Positions 1,907-20,880 of a stretch of 64,000 bases of DNA are shown here, piece by piece. The stretch lies in assembly GCA_965153455.1 (NCBI GenBank), contig OZ234493.1, forward strand, positions 62,001 through 126,000, read 5' to 3'. This DNA comes from Sphagnum compactum (taxonomy: Eukaryota). The position numbers and the translations under genes are program-made. The first letter of the stretch is position 1. The number at the start of each line of letters is the position of its first letter. Below the pieces are notes generated by a model. That model was given only the letters and a program-made list of their open reading frames with translations, was not told the origin of the DNA and searched no databases.

Positions 1907-2109
1907 CAACTTGAAGGATTGTGCGGAGGAGTATGTGAAGACTTGTTTAACTTGTCAACAAAACCAGACCCTCAACAAGAAGCAAGCGGGTTTGTTACAA
2001 CCTTTGCCGATTCCCGAAGGGCCGTGCGAAAGTGTGTCAATGGACTTTATGATAAGTTTGCCCCCTTCAAAGGGGTTTGATGCCATCATGGTTGTGGTGG
2101 ATCGATTTT
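1907..2109 (+). pseudogene. Fragment of chromovirus pol (integrase zinc-finger end and start of core)
   Basis: Translates KDCAEEYVKTCLTCQQ...SVSMDFMISLPPSKGFDAIMVVVDRF. Near-identical to 18880-19081 of element A. Confidence 0.9.
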
Positions 2110-2686
2110 CATTTGTGGCGTTCACAAGGTCACGGAGTTTGCACCGAGAGATGTAGTCGGAATTCCTTGGAACAAATTTCGACTCGAGGCATTATTTGAA
2201 GAATTCCCAAGTATACCCATGGTTCTTCCCCTCCTCTTGTCTCACCGTCCCCCACCATGTGGTGGCATAGCCTTTCAAGTAGGACTAGGCAAGCTCCACG
2301 GCGGAATGCCGTCCAACCTTGGCGGCATGTATATAATCGTCCATCTCCGCAAGCCAAGCATCCACAACCTTCTGGTCTCAGGCACCATCGTAATTCCCGG
2401 GCTTGGCCGGTTGAAACCTTTCACCTTTGGAGGTCCCCGTTTTGAGGGCTGCCACCAACTCACCAAAGTCCGGCCTATTCATCTTGAGGAGGACTTCAAG
2501 TTGCTCCAGGGTGAATAGGACCGAGCTCCGTTGTTCCTCCTCACTTTCGGGTTCAACCTCGGGCTCATCTTGGTCCTCCCGGAAATTTGGTTCCTCCCCA
2601 ATTGATTCCGGCGGGGCTACTAGGTCTTCGACGGGCTCCTCGGACCTAAGCTCTGGAGCTAGCTTCCGATTCTTCTTGGGTGCCAT
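2110..2686 (-). pseudogene. gag: Truncated gag of copy C
   Basis: ORF 2378-2686 matches the gag N-terminus of element A. Stop at 2378, homology continues to ~2110. Confidence 0.88.
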
Positions 2687-2722
2687 CCCAAACTCCCAAG
2701 AAGTACTTGAGCTTCACCTTGA

Positions 2723-2734
2723 GCTCTGATACCA
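2723..2734 (-). promoter_or_regulatory. Primer-binding site (tRNA-iMet) of copy C
   Basis: TGGTATCAGAGC on the minus strand, 2 nt after the LTR end. Confidence 0.92.
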
Positions 2735-2736
2735 CA

Positions 2737-3555
2737 TGACGCGCTCCTAAGTCCCTTGTTGAACCCACTTGAGGGTTCAACTATGTAGAGTTGCGGAAAG
2801 TTGGGACTTGGGGCCGTTCCCGACTTCCAGCACTAGAAAGGGTAAAGGGGCATGCTAGAAGTCCCGTGATTAGACTGGGAAGAGGACAAGTGTTTCACCT
2901 ACTCAAATCTGCATAAAAAACCAACCCAAGTTGGTTAGAATCCATTCTGCACCCTTTTGGTGTTGGGACAAGCCACGGGCTAACTTGGACTCACTTGACT
3001 CACCACGGCCTGGACTCGGGGGAAGCCACCACCTTCCCCCTTATAGTATTCTTTGCGTCTCACCGCGGAGGCTACATCTGAATGGCTCTTTTTCCCGGGA
3101 CTCCCAAGTTGGAGTCCCGAAACTGTCCTGGGTTGAAGTCCCAAAACTTTGGGAGCTCGTAGCTCCCAGCTCCAAACTCTAATTGGAGTGATCCTTGAAC
3201 CAAAGTTGTAGCCCTTGTCGAGAGCTTTCCAACGCCATGTCGCACTTTTTCTGCAAACGTCCGCAAGAAGTCGATTCCCGACTTTTAGTGGTCGGGAGTC
3301 AAACTGCCAATTTGACTCCCGGCCCTTCTTTTGCCCGTAACTTGGGCTGCAGATGTCCAAATGACCAATGCGAGGGCATTTTAGACATCTACACTTCAAG
3401 ACCTTTCCATTGATATAAAAAACACCTCGAGGCGAGGTGTTTTGACCCCTATAATCTCTCCTGAGTTTTTGAGAGTCCCAGAGGACTCTAAGTCTCGCAC
3501 TTTTTGGAGTGTGAGGTGCACTCTCACCCTTTTGCCTCAAAGTGGGGTTGTCACA
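2737..3555 (-). repeat. 5' LTR of copy C (~819 bp)
   Basis: TG...CA ends. Homologous to LTRs at 14475-14974, 20881-21691 and 21692-22450. Confidence 0.9.
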
Positions 3556-5002
3556 CCCACGCATTCTCTTTCCCAAGCTTTTCCTAACATAAAGTGGATG
3601 GTTGGACCACTCACACAAGGCAATTCATGTGCCTTGACTCGTACAATCCCACTTTTAGATGGGATTCTAACTAACCTATTGTGCCCTTCTATGAACACAT
3701 TGTTTTGGGTGATGAACTCCATTCCCAAAACGCAATCCATTCCACCCAAGGTGGAAACTAACAAATCCACCTTTCCTTTCCAATTTCCCAATTGGAGAGG
3801 CACTCCCTTTGCTTGTAAAGTGGTTGGATGGGGAACCCCATCCGCGAAGTGCACCTCAATGGGTGCCTTGAGCTCCTCCAAGTGGAGCTCCATCCTTTCG
3901 GTGCTCTCCCGAGTTATGAAGTTATGAGAAGCCCCTGTGTCCAAAAGACATAAAATATCCCGCTTAGCGATCTTCCCTTTCAAGAAGATAAGTCAATTGC
4001 ATTCCGGTTGGGCTAGAGTGGCATTGAGAGCAAGTACCTTAGAGCTCCCACTCCCCGGTTTGGACTTGGGACAATCTTTGGAGTAATGCCCCACCTAGTT
4101 GCAATTGAAACATGCACCCTTGGGTTTTGCTCCAAATTCTCCCTTGGTTTGGTTCCCTTTGAAAGGAGCCCCCTTCTTCACAAAGCTCCCTTTGGGTTTG
4201 AACCCCAAGCCTTGGAATTGTTTGGGCTTTTCCTTGGTTGGGCTACCTTGCCCCAATTCCATTCCCCCTCATGCCTTGGTTTCTTGTGAAGGAACTTGTT
4301 GTCCTTATTGAACCCGGATTTGTCGCTCCGCCCTACATCCGAGAAGTTCTCCACTTTCGTGATGGCCTCGGATAGTGAGGTGGGCCAACTCTCCTCAAGC
4401 TTTCGCTTGGCCCAAGTTGGAAGCCCCATCACAAATTGGCACACACGATCCAACTCGTGCATGTGCCGGATCTCAAGCATGAGCTCGGAATAGGCCCTCA
4501 CATATTGCCTCAAATTTTCATTTGTGGCATTCACAAGGTCACGGAGTTTGCACCGAGAGATGTAGTCGGAATTCCTTGGAACAAATTCCGACTCGAGGCA
4601 TTCCTTGAAGAACTCCCAAATATACCCATGGTTCTTCCCCTCCTCTTGTCTCACCGTCCGCCACCATGTGGCGGAATAGCCTTTCAAGTAGGACTGGGCA
4701 AGCTCCACGGCGGAATGCCGTCCAACCTTGGCGGCATGTATATAATCGTCCATCTCCGCAAGCCAAGCATCCACAACCTTCTGGTCTCGGGCACCATCGC
4801 AATTCCCGGGCTTGGCCAGTTGAAACCTTTCACCTTTGGAGGTCCCCGTTTTGAGGGCCGCCACCAACTCACCAAAGTCTGGCCTATTCATCTTGAGGAA
4901 GACTTCAAGTTGCTTTGGGGTGAATAGGACCGAGCTCCGTTGTTCCTCCTCACTTTCGGGTTCAACCTCAGGCTCATCTTGGTCCTCCCGGAAATTTGGT
5001 TC
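3556..5002 (-). pseudogene. gag C-terminal part and aspartic protease of copy B (frameshifted)
   Basis: ORFs 4178-4891 (retrotransposon gag) and 3537-3983 (DTGA protease) are colinear with element A. Confidence 0.9.
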
Positions 5003-5246
5003 TGTCGTGACGTGTAGTGTCGTGACATATAGTGTCGTAAGGGTGTGAATCTGTAAGAAACTCTACTAAACAAACAGCCTAAAACCAATTAAAGGTAGAA
5101 ACTAATCAACTAAAAAGAGATGCATGCACACACATATATATACAATGCACAAGTGAGGCTGAGATGAAATTCTCATGTATCCCCCCCAGACCTGAGCCGG
5201 GAAAAGCGTGGCATGGTCTGAGTAGGAATCAAGGTGCTGTAGGAGA

Positions 5247-5381
5247 GCATGATGAACAGTACCAATTGCCGGCGGGAACTTGAGTGAGTTCCGGCTTGAG
5301 GCAGAAGAGATGGTATCCACCATTACAATTATCGCAAAGCAACATCTGATCAGCATCGTCTATCCTCTAACATACCTAACA
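5247..5381 (-). other. PHD finger (C4HC3) at the integrase C-terminus
   Basis: Manual in-frame translation C*VC*RIDDADQMLLCDNCNGGYHLFCLKPELTQVPAGNWYCSSC. The two TAG stops hide it from the ORF track. Confidence 0.9.
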
Positions 5382-8300
5382 TGGATAATCAAGTGGAGGA
5401 ATCCAAGTCGACGTGATGATGGTAGGATCTAAGTTTGGCAAGTGGCAAAGCGCACAATTTTTGGAATGATCTCGAATTGTGCGTCCATCAGCTCCTTGCA
5501 ACTCCAACACACCTGAAGGCCTGATCGCCTTAATCCTCAAGATAATGCGACCGGAAGAAGTGTCTAAAGTATCATTGGGTTGTCGCTGAAGATACACAAA
5601 ATCACAAACATCAAATTGTCTCACCTTAGGTTTCTAACTGCCACCTCGTGTGTGTGCATATCGTAAAGTGTCTCGATGTTGTGCAATGGACAGGTTCTCC
5701 ATGGCCATGGGCATAACCCTCTTGAATAGAGCGGCCCTTTCTGCAATGACCTTAGCCCAAATGTTTGGGGAGTCCAAGTCCACAACTTAGTCCATTTGAG
5801 CAGCAATGGAAGAGGGTGGAATGGGATGTCTCCCAAAAAGTAAAAAGTAAGGGGAGAAATGAAATAAAGAGGCGTGTTTGGACATCCTGTAACCCATGGC
5901 GATGTAAGGGAGGGCCAGGTCCTAATCCTCTTTGTTCTTAGTGAGGCAAATCTTCCGAAGTCCCTTCTTGCATGTTTGAACCATCCTTTCTGCAAGGCCA
6001 TCAGCTTGGGGATGATCTCTTGAAGTCCGACGATGGTCAATGAGAGCATGGTCAAGTAGGTCTTGGAATTCTCCCCTGAATTCTGATCCTTGATCAGTAA
6101 GGCACTCAACACAAGCCCCAAACCTACTTAGAACCTGTTGTAAGAAAGCCTGGCTAGTGCTGTGTGATGACTTGTCCGATAGCGCAACAAGTTCGACCCA
6201 CTTTGAAAAATGTTCAATCATAATCATGATGTAGACATTACCCCTGGAGGTTTGTGGTAATTCTCCAGCTAAATCACATGACCAACGATAGAACATGCCC
6301 TGAATAGGTAGTGGAGAAAGAGTGAGCTGTCGAGAGGAGAAGGAAGTTCTCACTCTATCACATTGTTCACACCTAGCAATGATGTCTCGGACTTGAGCAT
6401 ACATACCTCTCCAATGGTAATGAGGAGCGAGAAGGCTATAAGTACGCTTAACTCCAAAGTGTCCAAGCTCCGAGTGTACCTTCTGAATAAGACCAAGCCG
6501 TTCATGTGGTGGTGGAACCACTCTGTCGCCTTGTGGTAAGCATCGGACGAGGTGATTGTCCCTCCATGAGTAGCGTTTGGATCGCTGTTGTATGCGATCC
6601 CGCTGACTTGATGTAACTTGGGGAGGGTATTCCCCATGTTGAAGAAACCCCAGAGTGTCCAAGTCCTCCCATATATCCAGAATGGGATGCTCAACCAGGT
6701 TACATTGTAGTAATGCAAGATAACTAGATGCCTCAGATACATGTATTGCTGGGATTTGGTCAAAATCTTGCCTGGCTTCTGAAAAATCTTCAGAGGTAGT
6801 GAGGGGTCTTCGTGACATGGTATCCGCATTTTGATGTGTAATACCAAGTCGGTGAATAACCTTGAACTCATACTCTTGAAGTATAAGCGCCCAACGAGCT
6901 AACTTACCAGTAAGCTTATCGTTGGTCATCAACCATTTGATAAGCTGGTGGTCCGTATACAGAGTGAAATTGGTGCCATAAATAAAGGGCCTGAAATGTA
7001 TGACGGCCCATACAACAGCAAGGCACTCCCCCTCGTATGAAGAGTAGTTGCTCTCAGCCTTGTTGTTGCTTCGAGATGCATAGGCGATAACATATTCCTT
7101 GCCTTCCTCATCAAGTTCGCCCAGAATAGCTCCAATACCAAGAGCACTCCAGTCAGTGTGTAGAATGAAGACCTTGCTGAAATCAGGTCTTCTTAGAATG
7201 GGGAACTCTGAAAGCTTTTCCTTGAGTGTGTTGAAAGCTTCCTGAGCCTCTTCACTCCATGTCCAAGCAACATCCTTCTTTAACAATGCATAGAGAGGAT
7301 GAGCAATAGTATTGAAGTCTTGGACATAAATCCTGTAGTAATTACATAGTCCGATGAAGCTCCTCAAAGTGTGAACATCAGTAGGATCGGGCATCTCCAA
7401 AATGGCTACTACTTTGGCCCAATGAGCCATAATACCATTTGGCAAAATTCTGTGTCCAAGGTAGACTACTGAGGTGACAGCAAACTCACACTTTTTAGGA
7501 TGGATCTTCATATTGACTTCGTGGAGCCTCTTGAATAACTCCTCAAGATGAGCCAAGTGCTGCAGGAGTCCCTTGCTATGCACTAGGACATCATCTATGT
7601 AGCATTTCAGGAAATCTGCCCCTTCGAGAACCTGGTCCATGACTCGCTAAAAGAAGACAGGTGCATTCTTCAATCCAAAAGGCATCACAAGCCATTCCCA
7701 CAACTTGTTGCTTCCATGGAATGTCGTTTTCTTGCGATCCTTTGCAACGAGCACAATCTGGTTGAAGCCTTGCCTCAGATCCACAATTGTGAAGATGTTT
7801 GAGTCTCCAATGCTATCAAACAGTTCTTCAGGGATGGGCATGGGGTACCTGTCCTGAGGTGTAACCAGGTTCAAAGGCCTATAATCCCCGCACATCCTTT
7901 TCTCAATCCATAATCCAGCTGCATCCTTCTTTGCTGGCATTACTATAGCGGCTGCGAAATCAGAACTTGATGGCTGAATGAGACCGGCCTCATGGAGCTC
8001 TTTGCATCTTTCATCTACCAATTCCCATACATGTTTGCTCAACCTATGCCTCCTTCGATAGACCGGTGTCTCATCTGTAAGGTCTATAGAGAACTGCATG
8101 GTCTTACACCTACCTAAGTCTTTCATTGAGAATGCGAACACATTCTCATACTTAATTAGCAAGTCTGTGACCTGGTCTCTCTCCTTCTTGGTGAGCTGGT
8201 TCCCCATAACAAAAGGGTAGTTGGAAACACATGGAATGGAGTTGGAAAGTGTGTTTGAAGAACCTGGTGTATTGGGTTCTCCATTATCCAACTGCGTAGA

Positions 8301-8534
8301 TTCGTAGAAGGTTGTAATTGTTTCTCCAGAAGCTGATGTACCTCGAGGTGTATTGGACATAACTTGAGTCAAATTACATGGTACCTCCTCCCCCCCAACA
8401 CTGAGAGTGAAATGTAGAGTGTTGAAGATAGGCAAGTATACTTGGTCAGGGTGCCATGTGGTTGCATCGCCAGAACTGCAAGCTGATTGAGTCAATGTTG
8501 GTGTTGTGTACATTTGAAAGAGTATACAGGTTAC

Positions 8535-9473
8535 CAACAACCATGTAAGGGAGTTCAGGTCCATGCTTCTCCCCAGTAAAGCGTTATGCTCCAATCTAGT
8601 CACCTTGGTGTGACTAGTAGTGCTAGTTTGGAACCCCATAGCCCTTTCTCTTTCTTCTGGGCTTGGTTCATCCCAAGTGGCTGAAGCATGACGATACACC
8701 AAGCCTGGTCCATCTCCCTGAAAGGCGTGTGCTCCAGGGAAGGAGACAAAGGTGGGCCAAGCACCTCTTGGTTTTCCTATTGTATTCGCAAGAAACCAAG
8801 GAGGTTTCTCTTGCCTTGTAACTAGTCGGCAAGAGCTCTGATCATCCAATATGTGAGAAACCTGTAGGTTGTGGTCTCTGATGGTGTATCTCAGAGCCAA
8901 CTGCAGAATTGAAAGTGGTGCAAGGTTGGTCCACCAGTTGCGCAGCCGGTGCGCATAGGAACCGCATTGTGCCGCATCGAGTAGGAATGGCTCGCCAAGG
9001 TAATGTTTAACAAGTGTGTAGTGCTCCTGGACTTTCTCCCTCTGGTCAAGCTGAGAAGGGATGTTCTCAATTACATAACCAAGCGTAGGGGAAATGGATT
9101 GAGCCCAGGTGATCAATCGTACCATGTCCGTGAAGAGACCGGATCTTGTGTCACTCAAGCCTTCTCCAAATCCAGCTGCTGAAAATCCTTGACACTCCCA
9201 ACCTGAAATGATGAGGTCCACGGGGCCAAGTAATTCCATATGCTTATTCTGAATTAATTGTATGTCAGGGGGCAAGAAAGTGAAACTGGCCTTCCATGCG
9301 GTGGTTGTAAACTGTTGTGGAAATCTGGTTGTGAGCTCCATCATTCTCGATGCTGCCACTTGCCTTGCAATAGGATCAATGTCTACGTAGAAATACTTTC
9401 GAACCACCATCCCTGACTATAGTAGGGCTTCGAGACCTATACCAATACCACCAAAGAGCTCTAGTAATGTAAT
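8535..9473 (-). other. DNMT3-like DNA (cytosine-5) methyltransferase domain within Pol
   Basis: Ordered C5-MTase motifs: I LELFGGIG, II VDID, IV DLIISGWECQGFS (Cys at 9192-9194), VI YVIENI, VIII AHRLRNWWTNL, IX ERERAMGF, X LLGRSM. Confidence 0.92.
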
Positions 9474-10591
9474 CCCTTCCTTAGGTGGTGTCCAGGTGAT
9501 TAGCTGACGGAGTAATGGCTTAATCGGTTCGCCATGGCTCTCCATGCTTTCAAAACTAGACAAAGCTTTGACCAAGGGCTTATGGGCTACTTTGAACCTT
9601 TGTAAAACCTCTGGTCCATGTTGAATGTCAGTAGGAACCACCCTCAAGCTTTCAGTAGCTTGAGCGTAAGCTATCTCCTCTTCATCTCCCTCTATCCATT
9701 CGTGGCTAGGTTGTTGGATGTAGGAAATGGTGTGTGCTTCCTTGAGCATACAATGGTGAGCCATAGGACTATGGTTCCCATGTAAATCAAGGGGTATGTA
9801 TCCCAGGTGGTGGCCATCAGTCTCCCAATCCACTCGGTAGTACGCATGTTCGAACCAGTTGTCAATTGTGAAACCTGGTGGAAACAGGGCCTCTTGCCCA
9901 ATGAGCACATCATAACTAGTGGCATTGGTGACTAAACATCTGACCTGTAGGCAAAGCTCCTGATTTGTACCTTCATTGAAATTAAGTGCAATCAAATCCG
10001 AGCTCTCCCCAAGTACCTCCTCTACGCTCCCACTAGCGATGCGAATGTGCCACATAGATTTTCGTAGTTTGGAGTCAAGCATGCCCATCTTCTTGGCGAA
10101 TTGAACTCCAAGAATCACTGGTTGGGCACCTGTATCAAGAAGAACCACTCTGGGTGTATGTCCTCCCACCTGGATTGCTGACTTAGTATTGTCGACAATG
10201 GCAACTCCGGTGGCGATGGAAGTTCTCTCACTAGGCACCACCTTCGGAAATGAGTGAGAGACTTTGTGGAGAGAATGGCTATCCACAACGCCTTTGCTGA
10301 GTAACAAATCCACAAGTGAGGTGTTCTTAACTCCCTTTTGATATGTGAATGTAGAATCAGAGGTAGGAAAGCTCACTAGTTTAGCCATGCCAGAACTAGT
10401 GACCAGATTACAAACGCCATCTGCAACACGTGAACCAATCGAATGTCTCTCCAAGGTGTTGGATGGGACCTCTGTAGCATGTGGATTAGGGAGTGGTAGA
10501 GGACCTGATGTAGTGTTCAAGGTATCCTCTAAGATTGCAATTATGTCCCTGGTGCTTAGCTTCAAATCTTGAAAACTAAACAATGGTGTAC

Positions 10592-12634
10592 TCACAAGCT
10601 TTTGCGCCACTCATGCATTTGAAGTTGGCATTCCATAAGCTGATCAGTGAAAAATTGTGTGTTTTCCTCATGTACTTGTACTCTTGGGACATGAGAATTT
10701 GATGCCCTAACAGCTTGTGGTGTAGTAGTCTCCTCCCCCCTCGCCAACAAGGTGCGTTCTTCTTCCATGTTGAGATGACGAAAAGATTGTGGCATGACTG
10801 CTCGAGCTCCTCTAGCCCTAGTAATAGGACTTGAGCCAGATGTGAATCCATCAGTCTGAATTACCTGCCTAGTGGCAGAAACTCTAGGTGCCACACTAGC
10901 TTCTTGTGCCGCGACATAAGAAGGGCAAAAAGAAGTAGCCAATTCTGGTGTGAGACTAGAATTGTGTGGAGTGGAAAGAACATACTCCCCAACCATTGCA
11001 TCGTGTGGAAGGCCATAGAACGACCTAGGAGGTCCCTCGCGTGATCCCGAACCTTGTATAGGTTGGGCATGACTAGCTGGTTGGGAGGACTTGCCCTTTA
11101 GATTAGCAAGTTGGGCCCTCAATGATTCAAGTTCATTTTGTAAAGTCTGAACTTGAATTGCATGGGCTTGAAACACCTCCCTCTTATCAGCATTTTGCTC
11201 CTTCTTCTTAGCATTCTTGTTGGAATTATTCTTGGTGGGCAAAGCCTGAGTGGAAGGCTGAGGTGCCTTGGCTTTTGGTTGACGGACAGCGGAAGATGCT
11301 GGCAGATTTTGTCATTGTAATCGGAGTTGCTTCCGCTCTGGGAACTTGGCAAAACAGACAGATTCATGATGTCCCTCTTTCCCACAATAATCACAAAAGA
11401 GATCCTCGGAAGGAATGTTACACTCACTAGCTTTGTGGGCAGGATTGCCACAGTAGTTGCAAGAAGGTAGGATGGGTGTAGCCGAGTGCACCGCTTTAGT
11501 CCTTGAAGAAGAATGCGATGATCTAGTTGGCGTAGCTGGTGTAGGTTGAGGCCTTGAACGTGATGGAGGCCTCATAGTACTGGCCTCATAGTGTGCATGA
11601 GCCAGTTCTAGCTTTTCGGAAATGTTGTACACATCCAACAAAGTGTACGAGTCTCCAAATTCTACAAAGACACGTTGCAAAACCTGCGCGTGCAGTGTTG
11701 GAGTACCTTCCAACGAACGAAGATACCGATGGGCAGCTTCTAGGTCTGTGATGCTCTGGGTATCCTCTTTGAGTTTGAGAAGCCTCCTGTAAAGCATCTT
11801 GAGGGTTTCATCCTTTTGCCGCGAAAAAGTGGCGAGCTGTAGAATTTTTTCAGAACTTTTGACTGGAAATTCCAGCTCAAGAATTCGAAAGAATTCCCCC
11901 ACTGGATCAACAAAAGCTGGCACATCAATGGTGGGAGGAATGTTTGCAGTAGCAGCAATGAGTTGTTCAAGAGAAAGGTTTACTGAGGTAGGTACCGGGT
12001 CTGGATTATTCAGCACAGTCCCGTGATGTGCAATTGCAGCTTGCAATGCAGCTTGAGAGGCGGTGGCGATGGCTATGGCGTAAGCTGGATTAGGAGCTTG
12101 GGTGACACCCAAAATCCTTGCAGAATGTTGCTCGTAGACATCCAATGCCTCATAATGCACATAACGAGCCAATTGCTTAAATGCAAACGCTTTGGTGTAA
12201 TTAGCACCATACTTCAGCTCCAATTCACAGACCACTGTTGGGAAAGTTTCCTTGAACTCGCTCAACGAAATAGTACCTGGCCTTCCGCTGAACTTCTCTA
12301 TTCTCCCAGAGGAATTGCTGACCTCCATGGTGTATATAGGTGTTGAAGTCACAGCTCGCAACGGAGTATACGGTGATGGTGCGAAAGTAGGTGCAGCAAC
12401 AGGTGTACCCCACTGATTGACCCCTCCAAATGGACTTTGATGTACTGTTGATGTAATGTAACCTGAACCTAAATTCCTAATAGGAGTAGTACTAGATGAC
12501 GATGGTGCTATGGGTGCTTGATGGTACCAACGTGAAGATTGTGAACTCAAAGATATTGGTTCAAAAGGTTGTGGGTTACTTCGTAACTGCCTTGGTTCTC
12601 GATGAGTAGTAGTACTTTCATCATCCGAGGTCAT
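10592..12634 (-). pseudogene. gag: Gag of the methyltransferase element with two CCHC zinc knuckles (one internal stop)
   Basis: Probable start MTSDDES at 12634. Gag-like RQKDETLKMLYRRL. Knuckles CNYCGNPAHKASEC and CDYCGKEGHHESVC. The TGA at 11312 is in frame with ORF 10592-11242. Confidence 0.85.
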
Positions 12635-12779
12635 GGTGTTGTCCCATGCCCCAAAATTTTGTACTAATATAATCCCCCAATTACAAAATCCTAACACAAT
12701 GTATGGTTTGAATCTCCCTAATTGCAGGACGATAGTATGGTAAAATGCAGCAAGATAAACTTCAAGACACAAGACCACA

Positions 12780-13740
12780 CGATGCACGACCACAGTGCGC
12801 AGAACACAGGAAACAGGACTGCAGTACAATACTACGCAGGACGGTACTACACAGGATGGCAATACGCAGTACGGCGGTACGCAGCACGACATGACGCAAG
12901 ACGATAAATACGGTGATGTCAGCAGTGACGTAGGCAGGACGCAGGACGGTAGTACGGTGATGTCAGCAGTGATGTAGGCAGGACGCAGGATGGCAGCACG
13001 ATGACGTCAACAGTGACGTAGGACAATCCGACGAACGTCGGACGGAAGTTGAACGCACGGAACTTGAACGAATCGTCTGACGAGAGTCCGACGAAAGTCG
13101 GACGGACGTAAAACGGACCAAGGTCGCAGCGATGGCGCTGCAGCTCGCAACATTGCGACGCTACGTTGTTGCTGCTACAGTGCTCCTACGGCAGCGATGA
13201 CGTTGTTGCAACGTTGCTGTTGCGGCGTTGCTGTTGCGGCGCTGCTGCGCTGTTGCTGCGACGCTAGTGCTCCAGCGATGGCGCTGTGGCACTGTTGTTA
13301 CGGCCTTGAAGCTACGGCGCTACTGCTGCAGCTGCGACGCTACGGCACTATTGCTGCGGCGCTGCGGCGCTATTGTTGCGGCGCTATTACTACAGCGATG
13401 GCGTTGTGGCGCTGTTGCTGCAGCGATGGCGTTGCGGCGCTGTTGCTGCAGCGATGGCGCTGCGCCGCTGTTGCTGCAGCGATGGCGCTGCGCCGCTGTT
13501 GCTGCAGCGATGGCGTTGCGCCGCTGTTACTGCGGTGCTTCTGTTGCTGCGGTGCTGCTGTTGCAGCGATGGCGCTGCGGCGCTGTTGCTGCGGTGCTGC
13601 TGTTGCTGCGGTGCTGCTGTTGCAGCGATGGCGCTGCGGCACTGTTGCTGCGGCACTGCTGCTACAGCGATGGCGAGGGGCGCTAGAGCTCGCGGCAACG
13701 GCAGCGCTGGGATGCTGCGCAGTGATGGCAGGCGGCGGAC
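12780..13740. repeat. GC-rich tandem repeats in the 5' leader of the methyltransferase element
   Basis: ~27-bp unit GCAGCGATGGCGCTGCG(G/C)CGCTGTTGCT repeated over ~13130-13740. GCAGGACG / GTGATGTCAGCAGTGA repeats and TCCGACGAA.GTCGGA palindromes over 12780-13110. Confidence 0.85.
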
Positions 13741-14168
13741 GTCGCGATTTTTGTTTTTACTCGACAACTTCAAGGGAAAAAAAGAGAGAAAGGAGAGAAA
13801 TTCAAAACTTGTTTCCCGGCTCTATTGGTTGGCATAAGACAAGCTCGTTCTTGTAACAATGCCTACTCCCTTCGACAGTAGCAACCCCAACACCCTCCGG
13901 CAGCAGTACCACCAACAGTAGCAACAATAGCAACAACAACAATAACTCCAGAACTTACAAGCAAAAGAAATCTGTGGTTTACACATGAAGCACAGAAAGT
14001 GGAGTTTTTCTAGAATTGAAATGAATTGCAAAGAACTAATGAAGGTGTATGTAGACGGTGGCCGTGTAGTAACCACTGTGAGCATCTAGAAAATCCAAGT
14101 AAACTATGGAGGCAACTCTCATACAAAGGAATTCTAGAAAAACTAAAGGATAAGGGAAGGGCTTGGCC

Positions 14169-14176
14169 CTTTTATA
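14169..14176 (-). promoter_or_regulatory. Putative TATA box of the methyltransferase element
   Basis: TATAAAAG on the minus strand ~150 bp inside the 5' terminus, followed by a pyrimidine-rich stretch. Confidence 0.5.
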
Positions 14177-14460
14177 CAGCCACCAAAAGCTGAAACCCTG
14201 AACACCTAATAGCGTACAGTCACTTAAGAACGTACGTTAACCCTACAACCGTACATTAACCCTAAAAGGTATGACGGCATGCCCGTAACCGGGCATCATG
14301 TATGCGGCCATGCATACGGGCATGACAGTTCCTCCCCAATTGAATCTGGCGGGGCTACTAGGTCTTTGACGGGCTCCTCGGAACTAGGCTCTGGAGCTAG
14401 CTTCCGATTCTTCTTGGGTGCCATCCCAAACTCCCAAGAAGTACTTGAGCTTCACCTTGA

Positions 14461-14472
14461 GCTCTGATACCA
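14461..14472 (-). promoter_or_regulatory. PBS (tRNA-iMet) of copy B
   Basis: TGGTATCAGAGC on the minus strand next to the LTR end at 14475. Confidence 0.92.
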
Positions 14473-14474
14473 CG

Positions 14475-14974
14475 TGACACGCTCCTAAGTCCCTTGTTGA
14501 ACCCACTTGAGGGTTCAATTATATAGAGTTGCGGAAAATTGGGACTTGGGGCCGTTCCCGACTTCCAACACTAGAAAGGGTTAGAGGGGCGTGCTAGAAG
14601 TCCCAGGATTAGACTAGGAAGAGGACAAGCGTTTCACCTACTCAAATCTGCATCAGAACCAACCCTAAGTTGGTTAGAATCCATTCTGCACCTTTTTGGT
14701 GCTAGGACAAGCCACGGGCTAACTCGGACTCACTTGACTCACCACGGCCCGGACTCGGGGGAAGCCACCACCTTCCCCCATATAGTATTCTCTACAGCTC
14801 GCCCCCAAGGCTACATCCAAATGGCACATTTTGTTGGGACTCCCGAAATGGAGTCCCGAAACTGTCCCGGCTAGACTCCATGAACTTTGAACGGCCATAA
14901 CTCCCGACTGCAGAGTCCGATCACGACGAGGTCTGAACCAAAGTTGTAGCCCTCGTCGAGATCTTTCCAACGCC
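14475..14974 (-). repeat. 5' LTR of copy B, 5'-truncated
   Basis: Homologous to the other LTRs. Breaks off at TCCAACGCC where it abuts the oppositely oriented LTR of element A. Confidence 0.88.
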
Positions 14975-14975
14975 T

Positions 14976-15578
14976 TGGGCAAAAGAAGGGCTGGGAGTCA
15001 AACTGGCAGTTTGACTCCCGACCACTAAAAGTCGGGAATCGAACCTTTCCCGACGTCGCCTCAAAGACTGCAACATGGTGTTAGAAAGATCTCGACGAGG
15101 GCTACAACTTTGGTTTAGACCTCGTTGCGATCGGACTTTGCAGTCGGGAGTTATGGCTGTTCAAAGTTCCGAGAGTCCCGCCGGGACAGTTTCGGGACTC
15201 CATTTCGGGAGTCCCAACAAAATGTGCCATTTGGATGTAGCCTCAGCGGCGAGCTGCAGAGAATACTATATGGGGGAAGGTGGTGGCTTCCCCCGAGTCC
15301 GGGCCGTGGTGAGTCTTGTGTGTCCAAGTGCCCGTGGCTTGTCCCAACACCAAAGGGTGTCTCGAATGCTAAACTAACCTCTTGTGGTTGGTTTTTGGAT
15401 GCAGATTCACACAAGCTAAGCTAGTCCCTCTTCGTAGTCTAATCCCTGGGCTCCCAACTCGACCCTCTACCCCTCTTTAGAGTTGGAAGCCGGGAGCGTG
15501 CCTTTCGGTCCTAACTTTCCGCTACTTCACATTGGTGAACCCTCAAGTGGGTTCACCCCGGGACCAAGGAGCGCGTCA
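14976..15578 (+). repeat. 5' LTR of element A (first ~215 bp missing)
   Basis: Direct repeat of ~21097-21691, ends GCGCGTCA. Confidence 0.92.
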
Positions 15579-15580
15579 CG

Positions 15581-15592
15581 TGGTATCAGAGC
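15581..15592 (+). promoter_or_regulatory. PBS (tRNA-iMet) of element A
   Basis: TGGTATCAGAGC 2 nt after the LTR. Confidence 0.93.
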
Positions 15593-15620
15593 TCAAGGTG
15601 AAGCTCAACTACTTTTTGGG

Positions 15621-18600
15621 ATGGCACCCAAGAAGAACCGGAAGCTATCTCCAGAGCCTAGGTCCGAGGAGCCTGTCGAAGATCTAGTAGCCCCGCCGGA
15701 ATCAATTGGGGAGGAACCAAATTTCCGGGAGGACCAAGATGAGCCCGAGGTTGAACCCGAAAGTGAGGAGGAACAACGGAGCTCGGTCCTATTCACCCCG
15801 GAGCAACTTGAAGTCCTCCTCAAGATGAATAGGCCGGACTTTGGTGAGTTGGTGGCGGCCCTCAAAACGGAGACCTCTAAAGGTGAAAGGTTTCAACCGA
15901 CCAAGCCCGGAAATTTCAATGGTGCCCGAGACCGGAAGGTTGTGGATGCTTGGCTTGCGGAGATGGACGATTATATCCATGCCGCCAAGGTTGGACGGAA
16001 TTTCGCCGTGGAGCTTGCCCAATCCTACTTGAAAGGCTATGCCGCCACATGGTGGCGGACGGTGAGACAAGAGGAGGGGACGAACCATGGCTATACGTGG
16101 GAGTTTTTCAAGGATCGCATTGAGGCGGAGTTCATTCCGAGAAATTCTGACTACATCTCAAGGTGTAAACTCCGTGACCTTGTGAATGCCACAAATGAAA
16201 ATTTGAGGCAATATGTGAGGGCCTATTCTGAGCTCATGCTTGAGATTCGACACATGCACGAGTTGGATCATGTGTGCCAATTCCTGATGGGGCTTCCAAC
16301 TTGGGCCAAGCGGAAGCTTGAGGAGAGTTGGCCCGCCTCATTATCCGAAGCCATCACGAAAGTGGAGAACTTCTCGGATGTGAGGCGGAGTGACAAATCC
16401 GCGTTCAAGAAGGACAACAAGTTCCTTCACAAAAAGCCAAGGCATGAGGGGGAATGGAACCGGGGGCAAGGTAGCCCAACCAAGGAAAAGCCCAAACAAT
16501 TCCAAGGCTCGGTGTTCAAGCCAAAAGGTAGTTTTGTGAAAAAAGGGGCCCCTTTCAAAGGGAGCCAAACCAAGGGAAATTTTGGAAACAAACCCAAGGG
16601 TGCATGTTTCAATTGCAACCAGGTGGGGCATTACTCCAAAGATTGTCCCAAGTCCAAGACAAGGGTTGGGAGCTCTAAGGTACTTGCTCTCAATGCCACT
16701 TTAGCCCAACCGGAATGCAATCGACTTATATTCTTGAAGGGGAAGATTGCTAAGCGGGAAATTTTGTCTTTTGGACACAGGGGCCTCTCACAACTTCATA
16801 ACTGGGGAGAGCGCCGAGAGAATGGAGCTCCACTTGGAAGAGCTCACGGCACCCATTGAGGTGCACTTCGCGGATGGGGTTCCCCATCCAACTACGTTAC
16901 AAGCAAAGGGAGCACCTCTCCAATTGGGAAATTGGAGAGGAAAGGTGGACTTGTTGGTTTCCACCTTGGGTGGAATGGATTGCGTTCTAGGAATGGAGTT
17001 CATCACCCAAAACAATGTGCTCATAGAAGGGCACAATAGGTTGGTTAGAATCCCATCTAAAAGTGGGATTGTGCGAGTCAAGGCACATGAGTTGCCTTGT
17101 GTGGGTGGTCCAACCATCCACTTTATGTTAGGAAAAGCTTGGGAAAGAGAATGCGTGGGAGGTTTTGGCATGATGTGTGTCATGCGGGTGTTGGATGAAT
17201 ATGAGCCCAAGGAAGCCACCAAGTTGGTGACTTCCGCCAAGTGCATAAAGCAAGTCTTACAACAGTTCCCGGATGTGATGCCCGAAGAATTGCCCGAAGA
17301 CTTGCCCCCGAGAAGACGAGTTGATCATGCGATTGAAGTGATACTGGGAGTGGAACCACCCGCCAAGGCCCCATATAGAATGAGCCACGAGGAGTTAAAA
17401 GAACTCAAGGTTTAACTTGAGGAACTCCTCGCAAAAGGTTACATCAAACCAAGCAAGTCGCCATATGGGGCACCCGTCCTTTTTGTTCACAAGAAGGATG
17501 GGACTTTGAGGATGTGTGTTGATTATAGAGCACTCGACAAGGCAACGGTGAAAAATCGGTATCCTTTACCTCGCATTAATGATCTCTTTGATCATCTCTC
17601 GGGAACCAAGGTTTTTAGTAAAATTGATCTACGTTCAGGGTATTACCAAATAAGGATCGCGGAAGGGGATGAAGAAAAGACCGCTTGTCGCACAAGGTAT
17701 GGTTCATATGAATTCTTGGTGATGCCCTTTAGGCTCACCAATGCGCCCGCCACATTTTGCACTCTCATGAATGACATTTTCCGCGAATGGCTTGATGATT
17801 TTGTGGTCGTCTACATAGACGACATTTTGATTTATAGTAGCTCCATGGAGGAGCATGCGGAGCACCTTCGCAAGGTGTTCCAAAGGCTAAGGGAAATAAG
17901 TTGTATGCCAAGCTCGAGAAGTGCGAATTTGGGGTGACGAAAGTGGATTTCCTTGGGCATAGGATAACTCAAGAAGGTTTGATGATGGATGATCACAAGG
18001 TCAAGGCAATTTTGGATTACGAGCCGCCTAAGTCGATTCTCGCCTTGAGATCCTTTTTAGGATTGGCCTCCTATTATCGCAAGTTCATAAAGAACTTTGC
18101 GAGAATAGCAGCCCCTTTGACAAACCTCTTGAAGAAGTCCGCCGTCACCTACGATTGGGATGAAGCATGTAACGAAGCCTTTGAGACATTGAAAGGCATT
18201 TTGGTGAAGGCGCCGGTGTTAAAGTTGCCCGACTTTGACAAGGACTTTGAAATCCATTCCGACGCCTCCGACTTTGCAATTGGAGGTGTCATAGTGCAAG
18301 ATGGAAGACCGGTGGCCTTTGAAAGCAAGAAGTTGAGTGAAACGGAAAGAAGATGGCCAACACACGAGAAGAAAATGTGGGCGGTCATACATTGTCTCAA
18401 GACTTGGGGCCACTACATAGGCTCCAAAGATGTAGTGATGTGGACCGACAATGTGACCTTGAAATACTTCTCCACTCAACCCAAGTTGTCATCGAAGCAA
18501 GTAAGGTGGCAAGACACATTGGCTTTGTTCAATGTGGACATCCGGCACAAGCCGGGAAAGGAGAACATAGTCCCCGATGCCTTGAGCCGGAAACACCAAC

Positions 18601-20099: not shown

Positions 20100-20868
20100 T
20101 GAGGACATCACCTTTATTTTAGTGGGGCGGAATCCCGTATAAAATGTACCACATCAAGTTGCAAGTGAAATAAAAAGGGCTTTAAAACTTCCAAGAGATT
20201 GTATCATGAAAAATTTGTTAAGGCAAATAGGGTTGTGGCATGGGACAAATGGAACTTTCTTGCGTAGGCCCAAATCAAAATCGGACTCCTACTTTGGGGT
20301 TGAGGAAACTTGGCCCCAAAAGAAGAGGCAAGCAAGGTGAGCTTGCGAAGACATGCACATGCCTTAAGTGCATCCCAAAAGGTTGGTTGGTAGTGTGGCC
20401 AACGCGGAAGTCATGACCCCGCTCGCATACTTTAAGTGTAGTTTGGGACTTGGGTTTGGCAAACCCAAATGTTGCTTCTCGTACCTTGATAAGCAAACCT
20501 TTTAGTTAAGGCTTGGTTGTTATGACCAAGGCGCGGGATAGGAAAAGGAGTCATGTCAAATAGCTTAGGTCAAGAGTAGACTTGACTTAAGTCCTCATGA
20601 GGGGAAGAAATGGAAAAAATTCCTCCCAAATGAGGGCTTCGTCAATTATGCTAGTTTAGTCTTTTGACGAAGCATGGGAAGAGGGTTTTCCACAAGACCC
20701 TCTTGGACTTGTCAAGAAAGTGTTGGAATCTTGGGGACGCCTAAGTTAGCTTGAGACAAGGTCCAAGCCGCAAAGAGTCGACAAATGGCCAAGGATCCGG
20801 AAGAAAGCAATTGCAATTGTATGAAGGAAAATTCTAAATGTCAATGAGGACATTGACCTCTTTCTTCT

Positions 20869-20880
20869 AGTGGGGGAGAG
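20869..20880 (+). promoter_or_regulatory. Polypurine tract of element A
   Basis: AGTGGGGGAGAG immediately before the TGTCGCAACC start of the 3' LTR. Confidence 0.85.

What the first reader, a model, noticed from the sequence alone, without database searches (positions are those of the whole stretch)
8535..9473. Ty3/Gypsy-like retroelement carries a DNMT3-like cytosine methyltransferase inside Pol, between protease and RT
Seen: C5-MTase motifs I, II, IV, VI, VIII, IX and X occur in order and in frame between the DTG protease and the RT. Motifs VIII-X (AHRLRNWWTNL, ERERAMGF, LLGRS) resemble DNMT3 de novo enzymes (AHRARYFWGNL, ERVFGF, LLGRSW). Known, from memory: DNMT-bearing retrotransposons were reported in dinoflagellates and the charophyte Klebsormidium (de Mendoza et al. 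2018). I am not aware of a characterised land-plant example. Inference: the enzyme would be packaged in the particle and could methylate the cDNA or the insertion site.
Basis: partly seen in the sequence, partly recalled or inferred. Interest (0 to 1): 0.95.

Follow-up and report, generated by a model that had tools for sequence, protein, structure and literature searches.

The report
Moss retrotransposon carrying DNMT3-like methyltransferase
This is a decayed copy of a very abundant peat-moss jumping gene whose replication polyprotein includes its own DNA-methylating enzyme, a kind of element described so far only in a green alga.

Summary
On the minus strand, window 9473-8535 encodes a C5 cytosine methyltransferase domain, in frame between the DTG protease and the RT of a Ty3/gypsy-type Pol. 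Pfam PF00145 scores E 6e-9. The best solved relatives are DNMT3A/3B/3C by sequence profile (7.6e-25) and by predicted fold (TM 0.80-0.84).

It is not a one-off capture. At least 571 related stretches were confirmed in metagenome contigs, and named relatives occur in three Sphagnum species, the liverwort Calypogeia fissa, Closterium and Monoraphidium.

Lineage-level, non-deamination substitutions show constraint on the DNMT core. N/S is 0.56 against 1.84 for singletons (p 1e-5), at least as strong as for RT-RNase H.

This copy is dead. It has Gln-to-TAG stops, frameshifts, and has lost part of its terminal repeats. None of 73 sister DNMT regions is stop-free, although intact ORFs of 1214-1315 aa exist elsewhere.

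Sister copies carry DIRS-like split direct repeats with 4-bp target duplications, the structure reported for Klebsormidium KnitGypsy-Dnmt3. The integrase ends in a PHD finger.

Verdict: a land-plant member of a known kind. Catalysis and role are not shown.

The parts
5003..14327 (-). Whole element copy, 9,325 bp, with 5' TGTCATG... and ...CGTCACGACA 3' ends. It is inserted in the gag of another gypsy element. This is the 'type 2' form, which has lost the distal B and A repeats.
   Evidence: The flanking halves of element B are contiguous in the intact B copy at about 15714-15717. The end sequences were read.
14328..14331 (-). Target-site duplication GAAC, 5' side.
   Evidence: Read directly. 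It matches the 3' side read.
4999..5002 (-). Target-site duplication GAAC, 3' side.
14013..14327 (-). Repeat 'B' (about 315 nt), with a TATAAAA box. In full sister copies it recurs near the 3' end.
13123..13675 (-). Array of 14-nt (and 28-nt) tandem repeats in the 5' leader. This region varies between copies.
   Evidence: Very low depth in other copies (bins 12850-13803).
10592..13006 (-). Gag region with two CCHC-like knuckles. It is broken by one in-frame stop (11312-11314) and by a frameshift near 10592-10610, before the protease.
   Evidence: ORFs. Relatives P0004 and P0215 read gag-PR-DNMT as one ORF. About half of the depth in other copies has one extra base after 10610 (table 4).
9885..10175 (-). 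Aspartic protease (VLLDTGAQ).
   Evidence: PF13975 E 1.3e-5 and PF13650 E 8e-4, both below their curated cut-offs. The motif was read.
8535..9473 (-). DNMT3-like C5 cytosine methyltransferase domain, motifs I to X in canonical order. Motif IV reads GWECQGFS.
9417..9419 (-). In-frame TAG just after motif I. The codon is Gln in relatives.
   Evidence: P0004 and P0215 read LEALLQSGMVV. The position-9419 variant that gives CAG accounts for 87%, 50%, 52% and 100% of depth in runs X1, X2, X5 and X15.
7446..7898 (-). Reverse transcriptase, interrupted by a TAG at 7647-7649 (Gln in relative P0011).
   Evidence: PF00078 lies on both sides of the stop. P0011 sequence.
6870..7259 (-). RNase H.
   Evidence: PF17917 E 2.8e-36 and PF17919 E 1.8e-33.
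6009..6515 (-). Integrase zinc-binding domain and DDE core.
   Evidence: PF17921 E 1.1e-15 and PF00665 E 8.6e-13.
5247..5381 (-). PHD finger at the C-terminal end of the integrase. It is reached only through frameshifts and is broken by two TAG stops (5376-5378 and 5367-5369); both codons are Gln in a Sphagnum relative.
   Evidence: PF00628 E 7e-12. P0427 reads PCQVCQ. Best solved relatives are the PHD fingers of WSTF, CHD4, KDM5, KMT2D and ATXR5.
5181..5192 (-). G-run (GGTCTGGGGGGG) directly upstream of repeat A. It looks like a polypurine tract and is conserved in 10 of 10 sister copies inspected.
5003..5180 (-). Repeat 'A' (178 nt), the 3' terminus of this copy. Full sister copies have A, then 2 nt, then B, then A here.

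Best explanation
Window 14327-5003 (minus strand) is one dead copy of a high-copy retrotransposon family of a Sphagnum-type moss. The family is a land-plant member of the 'Gypsy-DNMT3' kind first described in the charophyte Klebsormidium nitens.

Shown: the element encodes a single gag-PR-DNMT-RT-RNaseH-IN-PHD polyprotein. The DNMT module is a non-permuted, DNMT3-like C5-MTase with every family-invariant catalytic residue. The module is shared by hundreds of copies and by distant green-lineage relatives, and was under purifying selection while the family diversified. Full copies are bounded by split direct repeats (B-internal-A-2nt-B-A) with TG...CA ends and 4-bp target duplications, so a linear cDNA is inserted by the DDE integrase. 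The window copy has lost B2 and one A repeat by A/A recombination. It also carries Gln-to-TAG stops and frameshifts, consistent with deamination of methylated cytosines.

Inferred, not shown: the polyprotein is cut by PR, so that the methyltransferase travels with RT and IN. It methylates the new cDNA or the DNA around the insertion. The C-terminal PHD finger tethers the integration complex to histone H3 tails, as the chromodomain does in chromoviruses.
For: Domain identity: PF00145 at E 6e-9. The family profile hits DNMT3A at 7.6e-25, then 3C, 3B, DRM (5e-15), HhaI (5e-10) and DNMT2 (2e-4). The AlphaFold2 model has pLDDT 87.9, and its top Foldseek hits are all DNMT3A/B/C.

Architecture: for the window. 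P0011 shows PR-DNMT-RT-RH-IN-PHD in one 2358-aa protein. P0215 is an uninterrupted 1315-aa gag-PR-DNMT-RT(N) ORF about 80% identical to the window.

Contig pieces laid from four runs numbered 7,117, 86,922, 67,715 and 1,536.

Host: named relatives are Sphagnum compactum 80%, S. magellanicum 94% and S. balticum 87%, and Calypogeia fissa 65-67% and 41%. Some runs carry the label 'moss metagenome'. The neighbouring element B is a land-plant-type chromovirus.

Selection: DNMT core N/S is 0.56 for shared variants against 1.84 for singletons, p 1e-5. RT-RH gives 0.91 against 3.36, and IN gives 1.00 against 2.80. Eleven invariant columns are kept in the window copy.

Repeats and integration: 17 loci show A-B-A after the internal region, 3 are partial, and 11 end in A alone. 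Exact 4-bp duplications flank 8 of 10 type-1 copies and 6 of 7 type-2 copies checked. L007 (type 1) and L029 (type 2) occupy the same locus, with 96% identical flanks. Within one element, B1/B2 are 85-92% identical, against mostly 70-78% (up to 89% in a few copies) between the window's B and the B of other copies. [quoted passage not shown] 4c legend).

Decay: C>T per copy-site is 0.203 (CG), 0.242 (CHG) and 0.074 (CHH), against 0.018-0.019 for A>G and T>C.
Against: No catalytic activity is shown for any Gypsy-DNMT3. The Klebsormidium domain gave no methylation in yeast, which the authors called inconclusive.

The residue before the catalytic Cys is Glu (GWECQ) rather than the near-universal Pro. 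Among 175 family domains, a motif pattern found Glu in 86, Pro in 61 and other residues in 4, with no match in 24. The effect on catalysis is unknown.

None of 73 full-length sister DNMT regions is free of stops, so nothing here shows present activity in the source genome.

I had no Klebsormidium sequence and no cellular DNMT3 sequence to put in a tree. Common descent with KnitGypsy-Dnmt3 therefore rests on shared architecture and repeat structure, not on phylogeny.

The RNA evidence is only contigs from metatranscriptome libraries, which may contain DNA.

The host genus is inferred from named relatives at 80-94% identity, not from the window's own record.
Confidence: 0.8

Rival explanations
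1. The DNMT module is conserved but is not a DNA cytosine methyltransferase in vivo. It might instead serve as a DNA- or chromatin-binding or targeting module, methylate RNA, or pair with the host's DNMT3 and modulate or poison de novo methylation of new insertions.
For: Glu replaces the motif IV Pro in 86 of the 151 family domains where the motif pattern matched. The Klebsormidium domain gave no methylation in yeast. Solved DNMT3 catalytic domains are listed as oligomers with DNMT3L or DNMT3B3 (titles), so pairing with a host subunit is conceivable.
Against: The catalytic Cys, the motif VI Glu-Asn, the motif VIII Arg and the motif I glycines are invariant or nearly so across a family only 30-45% identical overall. 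That is hard to explain without SAM-dependent catalysis. Sixty-one family members keep Pro. The yeast result was called inconclusive because human DNMT3B also failed.
Confidence: 0.15
2. The bryophyte elements acquired DNMT3 independently of the Klebsormidium elements, or reached mosses and liverworts by horizontal transfer from algae, rather than descending vertically from a streptophyte ancestor.
For: The family is patchy among named hits: Sphagnum, Calypogeia, Closterium and Monoraphidium only. The DNMT position differs between subclades: RT-DNMT-IN in 76 proteins and (PR-)DNMT-RT in 14. The module has therefore moved at least once.
Against: In a FastTree of 175 domains, the window, the moss ORFs, both Calypogeia sequences and both Closterium sequences share one supported subclade (43 rows, local support 97). 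On the drawn, midpoint-rooted tree, the clade of 34 rows that spans the window, P0350 and P0050 holds only the DNMT-before-RT order (8 of 8 scorable). The unusual split-repeat structure is shared with KnitGypsy-Dnmt3.
Confidence: 0.15
3. The domain is a one-off capture, an assembly chimera, or a host DNMT3 gene disrupted by a transposon.
For: None was found. The idea arises only because the window copy has no LTRs and has stops.
Against: At least 571 copies hold the domain at the same place. Of 80 loci, 73 cover the whole domain collinearly. Target duplications flank whole elements. Intact polyproteins up to 2358 aa carry it.
Confidence: 0.01

Closest known systems
KnitGypsy-Dnmt3 of Klebsormidium nitens (de Mendoza et al. 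2018, PMC5890265; passages read; figures and supplements not seen)
   Same: Gypsy-type Pol domains with a non-rearranged DNMT3-type methyltransferase inside the intronless Pol ORF. DIRS-like A/B split repeats combined with Gypsy domains. Purifying selection on the DNMT. Copies methylated or decayed in plant contexts.
   Different: The host is a land plant (a Sphagnum-type moss, with close relatives in a liverwort). Copy number is very high, whereas the paper stresses few copies in K. nitens. A PHD finger follows the integrase; 'PHD' does not occur in the paper's main text. Sequence-level kinship was not tested because no K. nitens sequence was on hand. The domain order in KnitGypsy is shown only in a figure I could not see.
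SymbioDIRS-Dnmt3 of Symbiodinium (same paper)
   Same: A DNMT3-type domain in Pol and A-coding-B-A-B repeats. For this family, CG methylation was demonstrated in yeast.
   Different: It uses a tyrosine recombinase and belongs to the DIRS order. The present element has a DDE integrase (PF00665) and 4-bp target duplications, and no PF00589 hit was found.
Cellular DNMT3A/3B/3C catalytic domain
   Same: Best sequence and fold match. Canonical motif order. Similar motif VIII-X signatures.
   Different: About 21% identity. There is no PWWP or ADD domain in the same chain; a PHD finger sits about 1,100 residues downstream, behind the integrase. Motif IV reads E-C instead of P-C. It is embedded in a retrotransposon polyprotein.
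Chromoviruses (Ty3/gypsy with an integrase C-terminal chromodomain), such as element B in this window
   Same: A chromatin-reader module is fused to the C-terminus of a gypsy integrase.
   Different: Of the 44 relatives with an integrase core, 38 carry PF00628. The repeats are split rather than plain LTRs.
PAT-like DIRS and Ngaro elements with split direct repeats (recalled from general knowledge; only the phrase 'A-coding region-B-A-B' was read)
   Same: The repeat layout is the same, with an internal copy of the joined termini (A-2nt-B).
   Different: Those elements integrate with a tyrosine recombinase and make no target duplication (recalled). Here integration leaves 4-bp duplications and TG...CA ends.

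Membership tests
Gypsy-DNMT3 retrotransposons (KnitGypsy-Dnmt3 type) | Gypsy-type Pol: aspartic protease, RT, RNase H and DDE integrase in that order. | tested here: met
   (PF00078, PF17917/PF17919, PF17921 and PF00665 above cut-off; the protease families are below cut-off, but the DTG motif was read).
Gypsy-DNMT3 retrotransposons (KnitGypsy-Dnmt3 type) | A non-rearranged DNMT3-type C5-MTase inside the Pol ORF. | tested here: met
   P0215 shows it in one uninterrupted ORF.
Gypsy-DNMT3 retrotransposons (KnitGypsy-Dnmt3 type) | DIRS-like split direct repeats instead of plain LTRs. | tested here: met
   Met in 17 sister loci. The window copy itself keeps only B...A, and the same-locus pair L007/L029 shows how that form arises.
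Gypsy-DNMT3 retrotransposons (KnitGypsy-Dnmt3 type) | [quoted passage not shown] | tested here: met
   Shared non-deamination variants give N/S 0.56 against 1.84 for singletons, p 1e-5. A classical pairwise Ka/Ks was not computed because every copy carries stops and heavy C>T decay.
Gypsy-DNMT3 retrotransposons (KnitGypsy-Dnmt3 type) | Phylogenetic kinship of DNMT and RT with the K. nitens copies. | not testable with these tools
   No K. nitens sequence was returned under a name. The paper's supplements are closed.
DNMT3 family of eukaryotic de novo methyltransferases | A catalytic domain closest to DNMT3 rather than DNMT1, DNMT2, DRM or bacterial enzymes. | tested here: met
   ranking. This is similarity ranking only; no tree with cellular DNMT3 was built.
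DNMT3 family of eukaryotic de novo methyltransferases | The motif IV Pro-Cys dipeptide. | tested here: not met
   The window and its close relatives read Glu-Cys. In the family, Glu occurs in 86 domains and Pro in 61. The Cys itself is invariant.
DNMT3 family of eukaryotic de novo methyltransferases | De novo DNA methylation activity. | not testable with these tools
   Needs an assay. The only published attempt on this kind was inconclusive.
Chromoviruses | A chromodomain at the integrase C-terminus. | tested here: not met
   The window has PF00628 (PHD) instead. No PF00385 appears on any of the 70 relatives.
DIRS order | A tyrosine recombinase and no target-site duplication. | tested here: not met
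   A DDE integrase was found and no PF00589. Four-base duplications flank the window copy and 14 of 17 sister copies checked.
Phygy clade of REXdb (Physcomitrella non-chromovirus gypsy) | Insertion preference for NCGN (PMC6317226, passage read). | tested here: not met
   None of the duplications read fits NCGN: GAAC, GGTC, CCAA, TGAC, TCTA, AACC, ATAA, TTTT, CCAC, ATGG, ACTT, AATT. No sequence comparison with Phygy was possible.

The most novel reading that the evidence does not exclude
Bryophytes, and much of the green lineage, host a large and essentially undescribed clade of DDE-integrase retroelements. These elements replicate through DIRS-like split repeats and carry their own epigenetic tool-kit: a DNMT3-type writer plus a PHD-finger histone reader. 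In species with intact copies, the element-encoded enzyme would methylate new cDNA or insertion sites and so contribute to the host methylome. The element would then enter the genome already marked, or direct itself to chromatin carrying unmodified H3K4.
Probability: 0.2. Interest if true: 0.85.

Novelty: new member of a known kind. Interest (0 to 1): 0.6.

Why it matters
Retrotransposons that encode the enzyme class their hosts use to silence them are known from dinoflagellates and one charophyte alga. What the enzyme does for the element is an open question.

This work shows that the same kind of element is very abundant in a peat-moss-type genome and has close relatives in a liverwort. It usually also carries a PHD finger behind the integrase. 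The family comes in two domain orders across green algae and bryophytes.

That brings the question into land plants. Methylomes, CMT/DRM/DNMT3 mutants and histone-reader assays exist there. The heavy CG/CHG/CHH deamination footprint gives a direct read-out of how copies were treated after insertion.

There is also a practical point for annotation. Decayed copies are being called as 'hypothetical proteins' and as cytosine methylases in public moss gene sets and metagenome bins.

Tried and rejected
1. Own-genome search: no genome is held for this window. All copy analysis therefore used metagenome contigs and sequencing runs.

2. Plain LTRs: three repeat searches found none inside 5003-14327. 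I first suspected a truncated element; sister copies showed split repeats instead.

3. Standard LTR replication models (LTR = B+A, or LTR = A+2nt+B): neither reproduces B-int-A-2nt-B-A with duplications at the outer ends. I leave the replication path open.

4. PBS: no tRNA-type TGG... primer site was seen by eye after B. No formal search was made.

5. Earlier findings of this scan: nothing for this sequence.

6. Rfam and tRNA scans of the window: no hits.

7. Cluster look-up for organism names: none were returned.

8. ESM Atlas: the top cluster scored 0.90 and was labelled 'Streptophyta'. The score is too weak to use as evidence.

9. Link to the REXdb 'Phygy' clade: rejected on target-site pattern only.

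10. RNA evidence: metatranscriptome contigs cover all 30 bins of the element, but they hold only 0.14-0.21 of the sampled words and may include DNA. This is not used as proof of expression.

11. Empty-site joints 5002-14330 in runs X2 and X5 most likely come from other copies of element B, not from an insertion polymorphism.

12. A classical Ka/Ks calculation was not attempted, because 73 of 73 copies carry stops and C>T decay dominates shared variants (353 of 451).

13. One search, the search with element B's RT-RNase H, only showed that B is a land-plant-type chromovirus.
Full report
**What is in the window**

The feature lies on the minus strand. Reading 10610 down to 5922 in one frame gives these domains in order:
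- An aspartic protease (VLLDTGAQ).
- A 320-residue stretch with the ten C5-methyltransferase motifs in canonical order.
- A linker of about 130 residues.
- RT, RNase H and a DDE integrase.

The finding's coordinates are exact. Motif I (ITLLELFGGIGIGLEALL) begins at 9473, and the motif X region ends just before 8535. Motif numbering is from general knowledge of C5-MTases.

Evidence for the methyltransferase domain:
- Pfam PF00145 matches above its curated cut-off, at E 1.9e-8 on the stop-free ORF and 6.1e-9 on the read-through with X.
- The best solved relatives of the single sequence are DNMT3A chains at E 2e-7, ahead of DRM and HhaI.

**Is it DNMT3-like?**

I aligned the window domain with 30 relatives, which are 30-43% identical to it. 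A profile of that alignment hits, in order:
- DNMT3A at 7.6e-25
- DNMT3C at 6.8e-21
- DNMT3B at about 1e-20
- tobacco DRM at 5e-15
- Arabidopsis DRM2 at 5e-11
- HhaI at 5e-10
- DNMT2 at 2e-4

No DNMT1 chain appears at E<=1e-3.

An AlphaFold2 model built on the alignment is confident (mean pLDDT 87.9, pTM 0.86). Its best Foldseek matches in the PDB are all DNMT3A, 3B or 3C catalytic domains, with E about 1e-17, target-normalised TM 0.80-0.84 and about 21% identity.

Eleven columns are invariant across the alignment, among them the catalytic Cys, the motif VI Glu and the motif VIII Arg, Trp and Asn. The window copy keeps all eleven.

One departure stands out. The residue before the catalytic Cys is Glu (GWECQ), not Pro. 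Among 175 family domains, a motif pattern found Glu in 86, Pro in 61, other residues in 4, and no match in 24.

**Not a one-off**

Three searches show a large family:
- A word-indexed search with the DNMT part of the read-through Pol returned 70 polyproteins of 872-2527 aa. Thirty-nine of the 70 also carry a PHD finger (PF00628), as do 38 of the 44 that have an integrase core.
- An exhaustive HMMER search found 2,527 representatives at E<=1e-3 and 258 at E<=1e-30.
Of these, 571 were confirmed, and the 80 kept are 79-91% identical in protein to the window domain.

Contigs of four sequencing runs were laid on the element at 85% likeness or more. They gave 7,117, 86,922, 67,715 and 1,536 pieces and covered all 30 bins. 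The family is therefore highly repeated in those samples.

**Host**

No genome is held for the window and organism names of the runs are coded. The readable labels are 'moss metagenome' and 'plant metagenome'.

A profile search restricted to 178-975 aa returned named public proteins:
- Sphagnum compactum at 80% identity.
- S. magellanicum at 94% over part of the query.
- S. balticum at 87%.
- The leafy liverwort Calypogeia fissa at 65%, 67% and 41%.
- Closterium species.

Monoraphidium and Closterium also appear. The neighbouring element B is a chromovirus whose nearest named relatives are land plants: Adiantum 47%, Riccia about 50%, and angiosperms about 50%.

I therefore read the window as coming from a Sphagnum-type moss. 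This is an inference from relatives, not from the record itself.

**Selection**

All copies are decayed, so I did not compute pairwise Ka/Ks. Instead I compared two classes of variant within the alignment of the window and up to 78 sister copies:
- Variants seen in one copy only, which mostly arose after insertion or are errors.
- Variants shared by three or more copies.

These have N/S near 2, as expected for recurrent neutral deamination. Among all other changes, shared variants are depleted in non-synonymous changes (all):

| Region | N:S shared (ratio) | N:S singleton (ratio) | Fisher p |
|---|---|---|---|
| DNMT core | 27:48 (0.56) | 177:96 (1.84) | 1e-5 |
| RT-RNase H | 30:33 (0.91) | 121:36 (3.36) | 4.5e-5 |
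| Integrase | 16:16 (1.00) | 56:20 (2.80) | 0.025 |
| Protease | 19:15 (1.27) | 70:16 (4.38) | 0.0057 |
| PR-DNMT linker | 13:8 (1.62) | 38:19 (2.00) | 0.79 |
| DNMT-RT linker | 18:12 (1.50) | 59:16 (3.69) | 0.085 |

The methyltransferase was thus at least as constrained as the replication enzymes while the family diversified. Its conservation at 30-45% identity across green algae and bryophytes points the same way.

**State of this copy and of its sisters**

The window copy has these lesions:
- A stop in gag (11312-11314).
- A frameshift before the protease. About 45% of the depth in other copies has one more base after 10610 (table 4).
- A TAG after motif I (9417-9419).
- A TAG in RT (7647-7649).
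- Frameshifts in the integrase C-terminal part.
- Two TAGs in the PHD finger.

All four TAG codons stand where relatives have Gln (P0215, P0011 and P0427). The base that restores CAG at 9419 makes up 87%, 50%, 52% and 100% of the laid depth in the four runs.

Of the 73 sister loci that cover the whole DNMT region, none is free of stops; each has 1-10. Only 6 of the 73 have a frameshift.

Across 7,400 coding columns, the C>T rates per copy and site are 0.203 at CG, 0.242 at CHG and 0.074 at CHH. A>G is 0.018 and T>C is 0.019. This is the footprint of 5-methylcytosine deamination in all three plant contexts.

Intact reading frames do exist elsewhere. P0004 and P0216 (1214 aa) and P0215 (1315 aa; gag, PR, the complete DNMT and the start of RT without a stop) are about 80% identical to the window.

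**Ends of the element**

The copy is inserted in the gag of a minus-strand copy of element B. The two halves of B abut in the intact B copy at about 15714-15717, and GAAC is duplicated at both sides. The ends read TGTCATG... and ...CGTCACGACA.

No LTRs exist inside the copy. Sister loci explain why:
- 17 loci have the order B (about 315 nt), internal region, A (178 nt), 2 nt (mostly AC), B, A.
- 3 loci are partial.
- 11 loci end in A alone, like the window.

Further observations on these repeats:
- Exact 4-bp duplications flank the outer ends in 8 of 10 full copies checked and in 6 of 7 A-only copies.
- Within one element, B1/B2 are 85-92% and A1/A2 are 87-95% identical. Between the window and other copies, B is mostly 70-78% identical, with a few at 81-89%. 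The repeats are therefore regenerated at each insertion, as LTRs are.
- L007 (full form) and L029 (A-only form) sit at the same locus, with the same CCAA duplication and flanks 96% identical. The A-only form is thus a deletion between the two A repeats.
- Read joints that link 5180 to about 14015-14046 are consistent with the corresponding B/B recombinants.
- A conserved G-run lies directly before A in 10 of 10 copies inspected.

This layout matches the Fig. [quoted passage not shown]' Here the TG...CA ends and the 4-bp duplications add that a DDE integrase inserts a linear DNA. I could not derive the replication path. Neither of the two standard LTR readings reproduces the observed order.

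**PHD finger**

After the integrase core and its C-terminal beta-rich part comes a C4HC3 PHD finger (PF00628, E 7e-12). Its best solved relatives are the PHD fingers of WSTF, CHD4, KDM5/Lid, KMT2D, ATXR5, KAT6A, BAZ2A/B, AIRE, UHRF1 and PHF21A.

From memory, many of these read the unmodified H3 tail. That is a lead, not a result. The word PHD does not occur in the main text of the 2018 paper.

**Family structure**

A FastTree of 175 DNMT domains was built with no outgroup, so it is unrooted in effect. It puts the window with the moss ORFs and Calypogeia P0359. One supported set of 43 rows (local support 97) holds all five bryophyte rows and both Closterium rows. Monoraphidium lies elsewhere.

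Domain order differs between the groups. RT-DNMT(-IN) occurs in 76 proteins and (PR-)DNMT-RT(-IN) in 14. On the drawn, midpoint-rooted tree, the clade of 34 rows spanning the window, P0350 and P0050 holds only DNMT-before-RT proteins (8 of 8 scorable).

**Literature**

Six searches and passages of five papers gave the following:
- PMC5890265 is the only description of DNMT-bearing Gypsy elements, and it concerns K. nitens.
- A 2025 paper (PMC12344493) and a 2026 preprint (10.64898/2026.05.21.726589) cite it for 'streptophytes' without naming a land plant.
- REXdb (PMC6317226) describes a Physcomitrella clade, Phygy, with an NCGN target preference. None of the duplications read here fits that pattern.
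- PMC9033089 adds nothing on this point.

The library holds open-access papers and bioRxiv only, and supplements were closed. Supplementary Figs 13-14 of the 2018 paper may show residues, Ka/Ks and RT placement that bear on membership.

**How it most likely works**

Shown: one polyprotein; a conserved and selected DNMT3-type domain; a DDE integrase that inserts a linear DNA with a 4-bp duplication; and copies that were afterwards heavily methylated in the host.

Inferred: after cleavage by the protease, the methyltransferase stays in the particle or pre-integration complex. It methylates the cDNA or the DNA at the new site. The PHD finger tethers the integrase to H3 tails.

The only published assay of this kind of enzyme gave no methylation and was called inconclusive. 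A non-catalytic or RNA-directed role therefore cannot be excluded.

**Verdict**

The observation and its reading are right. The element is a land-plant member of a known but barely studied kind. This copy itself is a fossil.

Noticed in passing
L007 and L029 (whole loci); also L001, L055, L066 and others: Full sister copies have split direct repeats (B-internal-A-2nt-B-A) with 4-bp target duplications. L007 (full form) and L029 (A-only form) are the same locus. The A-only form of the window copy therefore arises by recombination between the two A repeats.
   Followed up: yes
window 2105-5002, 14328-14977 (minus) and 14976-21696 (plus), plus 21741-22450: Several copies and fragments of a second gypsy element ('B') with LTRs of about 608 bp that are 94% identical. 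It is a chromovirus by its relatives' Pfam domains. The DNMT element is nested in the gag of one B copy, and two B copies lie head to head around 14977.
   Followed up: partly
window 13123-13675: A G+C-rich array of 14- and 28-nt tandem repeats in the 5' leader of the DNMT element. Other copies have different sequence here, and depth is very low in all four runs.
   Followed up: no
proteins (for example P0063 against P0011): The same DNMT clade sits at two different places in Pol: RT-RH-DNMT-IN in 76 proteins (including Monoraphidium, which also has a Tudor-like domain after the PHD finger), and PR-DNMT-RT in 14 (bryophytes, Closterium).
   Followed up: partly
window 9185-9208 (motif IV) and the family alignment A1: The residue before the catalytic Cys alternates between Glu (86) and Pro (61) in the family. 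A Glu-Cys motif IV is unusual for C5-MTases (the latter point is from memory).
   Followed up: partly
element coding part, window 5227-12627, against 80 loci: C>T decay is 0.20 at CG, 0.24 at CHG and 0.07 at CHH per copy-site, against 0.02 for the reverse transitions. Stops are common, but frameshifts in the DNMT region are rare (6 of 73).
   Followed up: yes
P0427 (public Sphagnum magellanicum gene model), P0404, P0454: Public moss gene models appear to be stitched from decayed copies of this element. Pieces of PR, DNMT, IN and PHD are joined and the parts between are skipped. Several metagenome annotations call fragments 'site-specific DNA-cytosine methylase'.
   Followed up: no
P0049: A 1974-aa RT-DNMT-IN-PHD polyprotein of this eukaryotic family is filed under a bacterial MAG name (Minisyncoccia). 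This is probably eukaryotic contamination of the bin.
   Followed up: no
window 1-2000: G+C content is only 20.7%, against 30-52% elsewhere in the window. It was not examined.
   Followed up: no
window 22827-23903 (plus): Two open stretches look like exons of an alpha/beta-hydrolase gene (a GHSFGG motif). This was judged by eye only, and no search was run.
   Followed up: no
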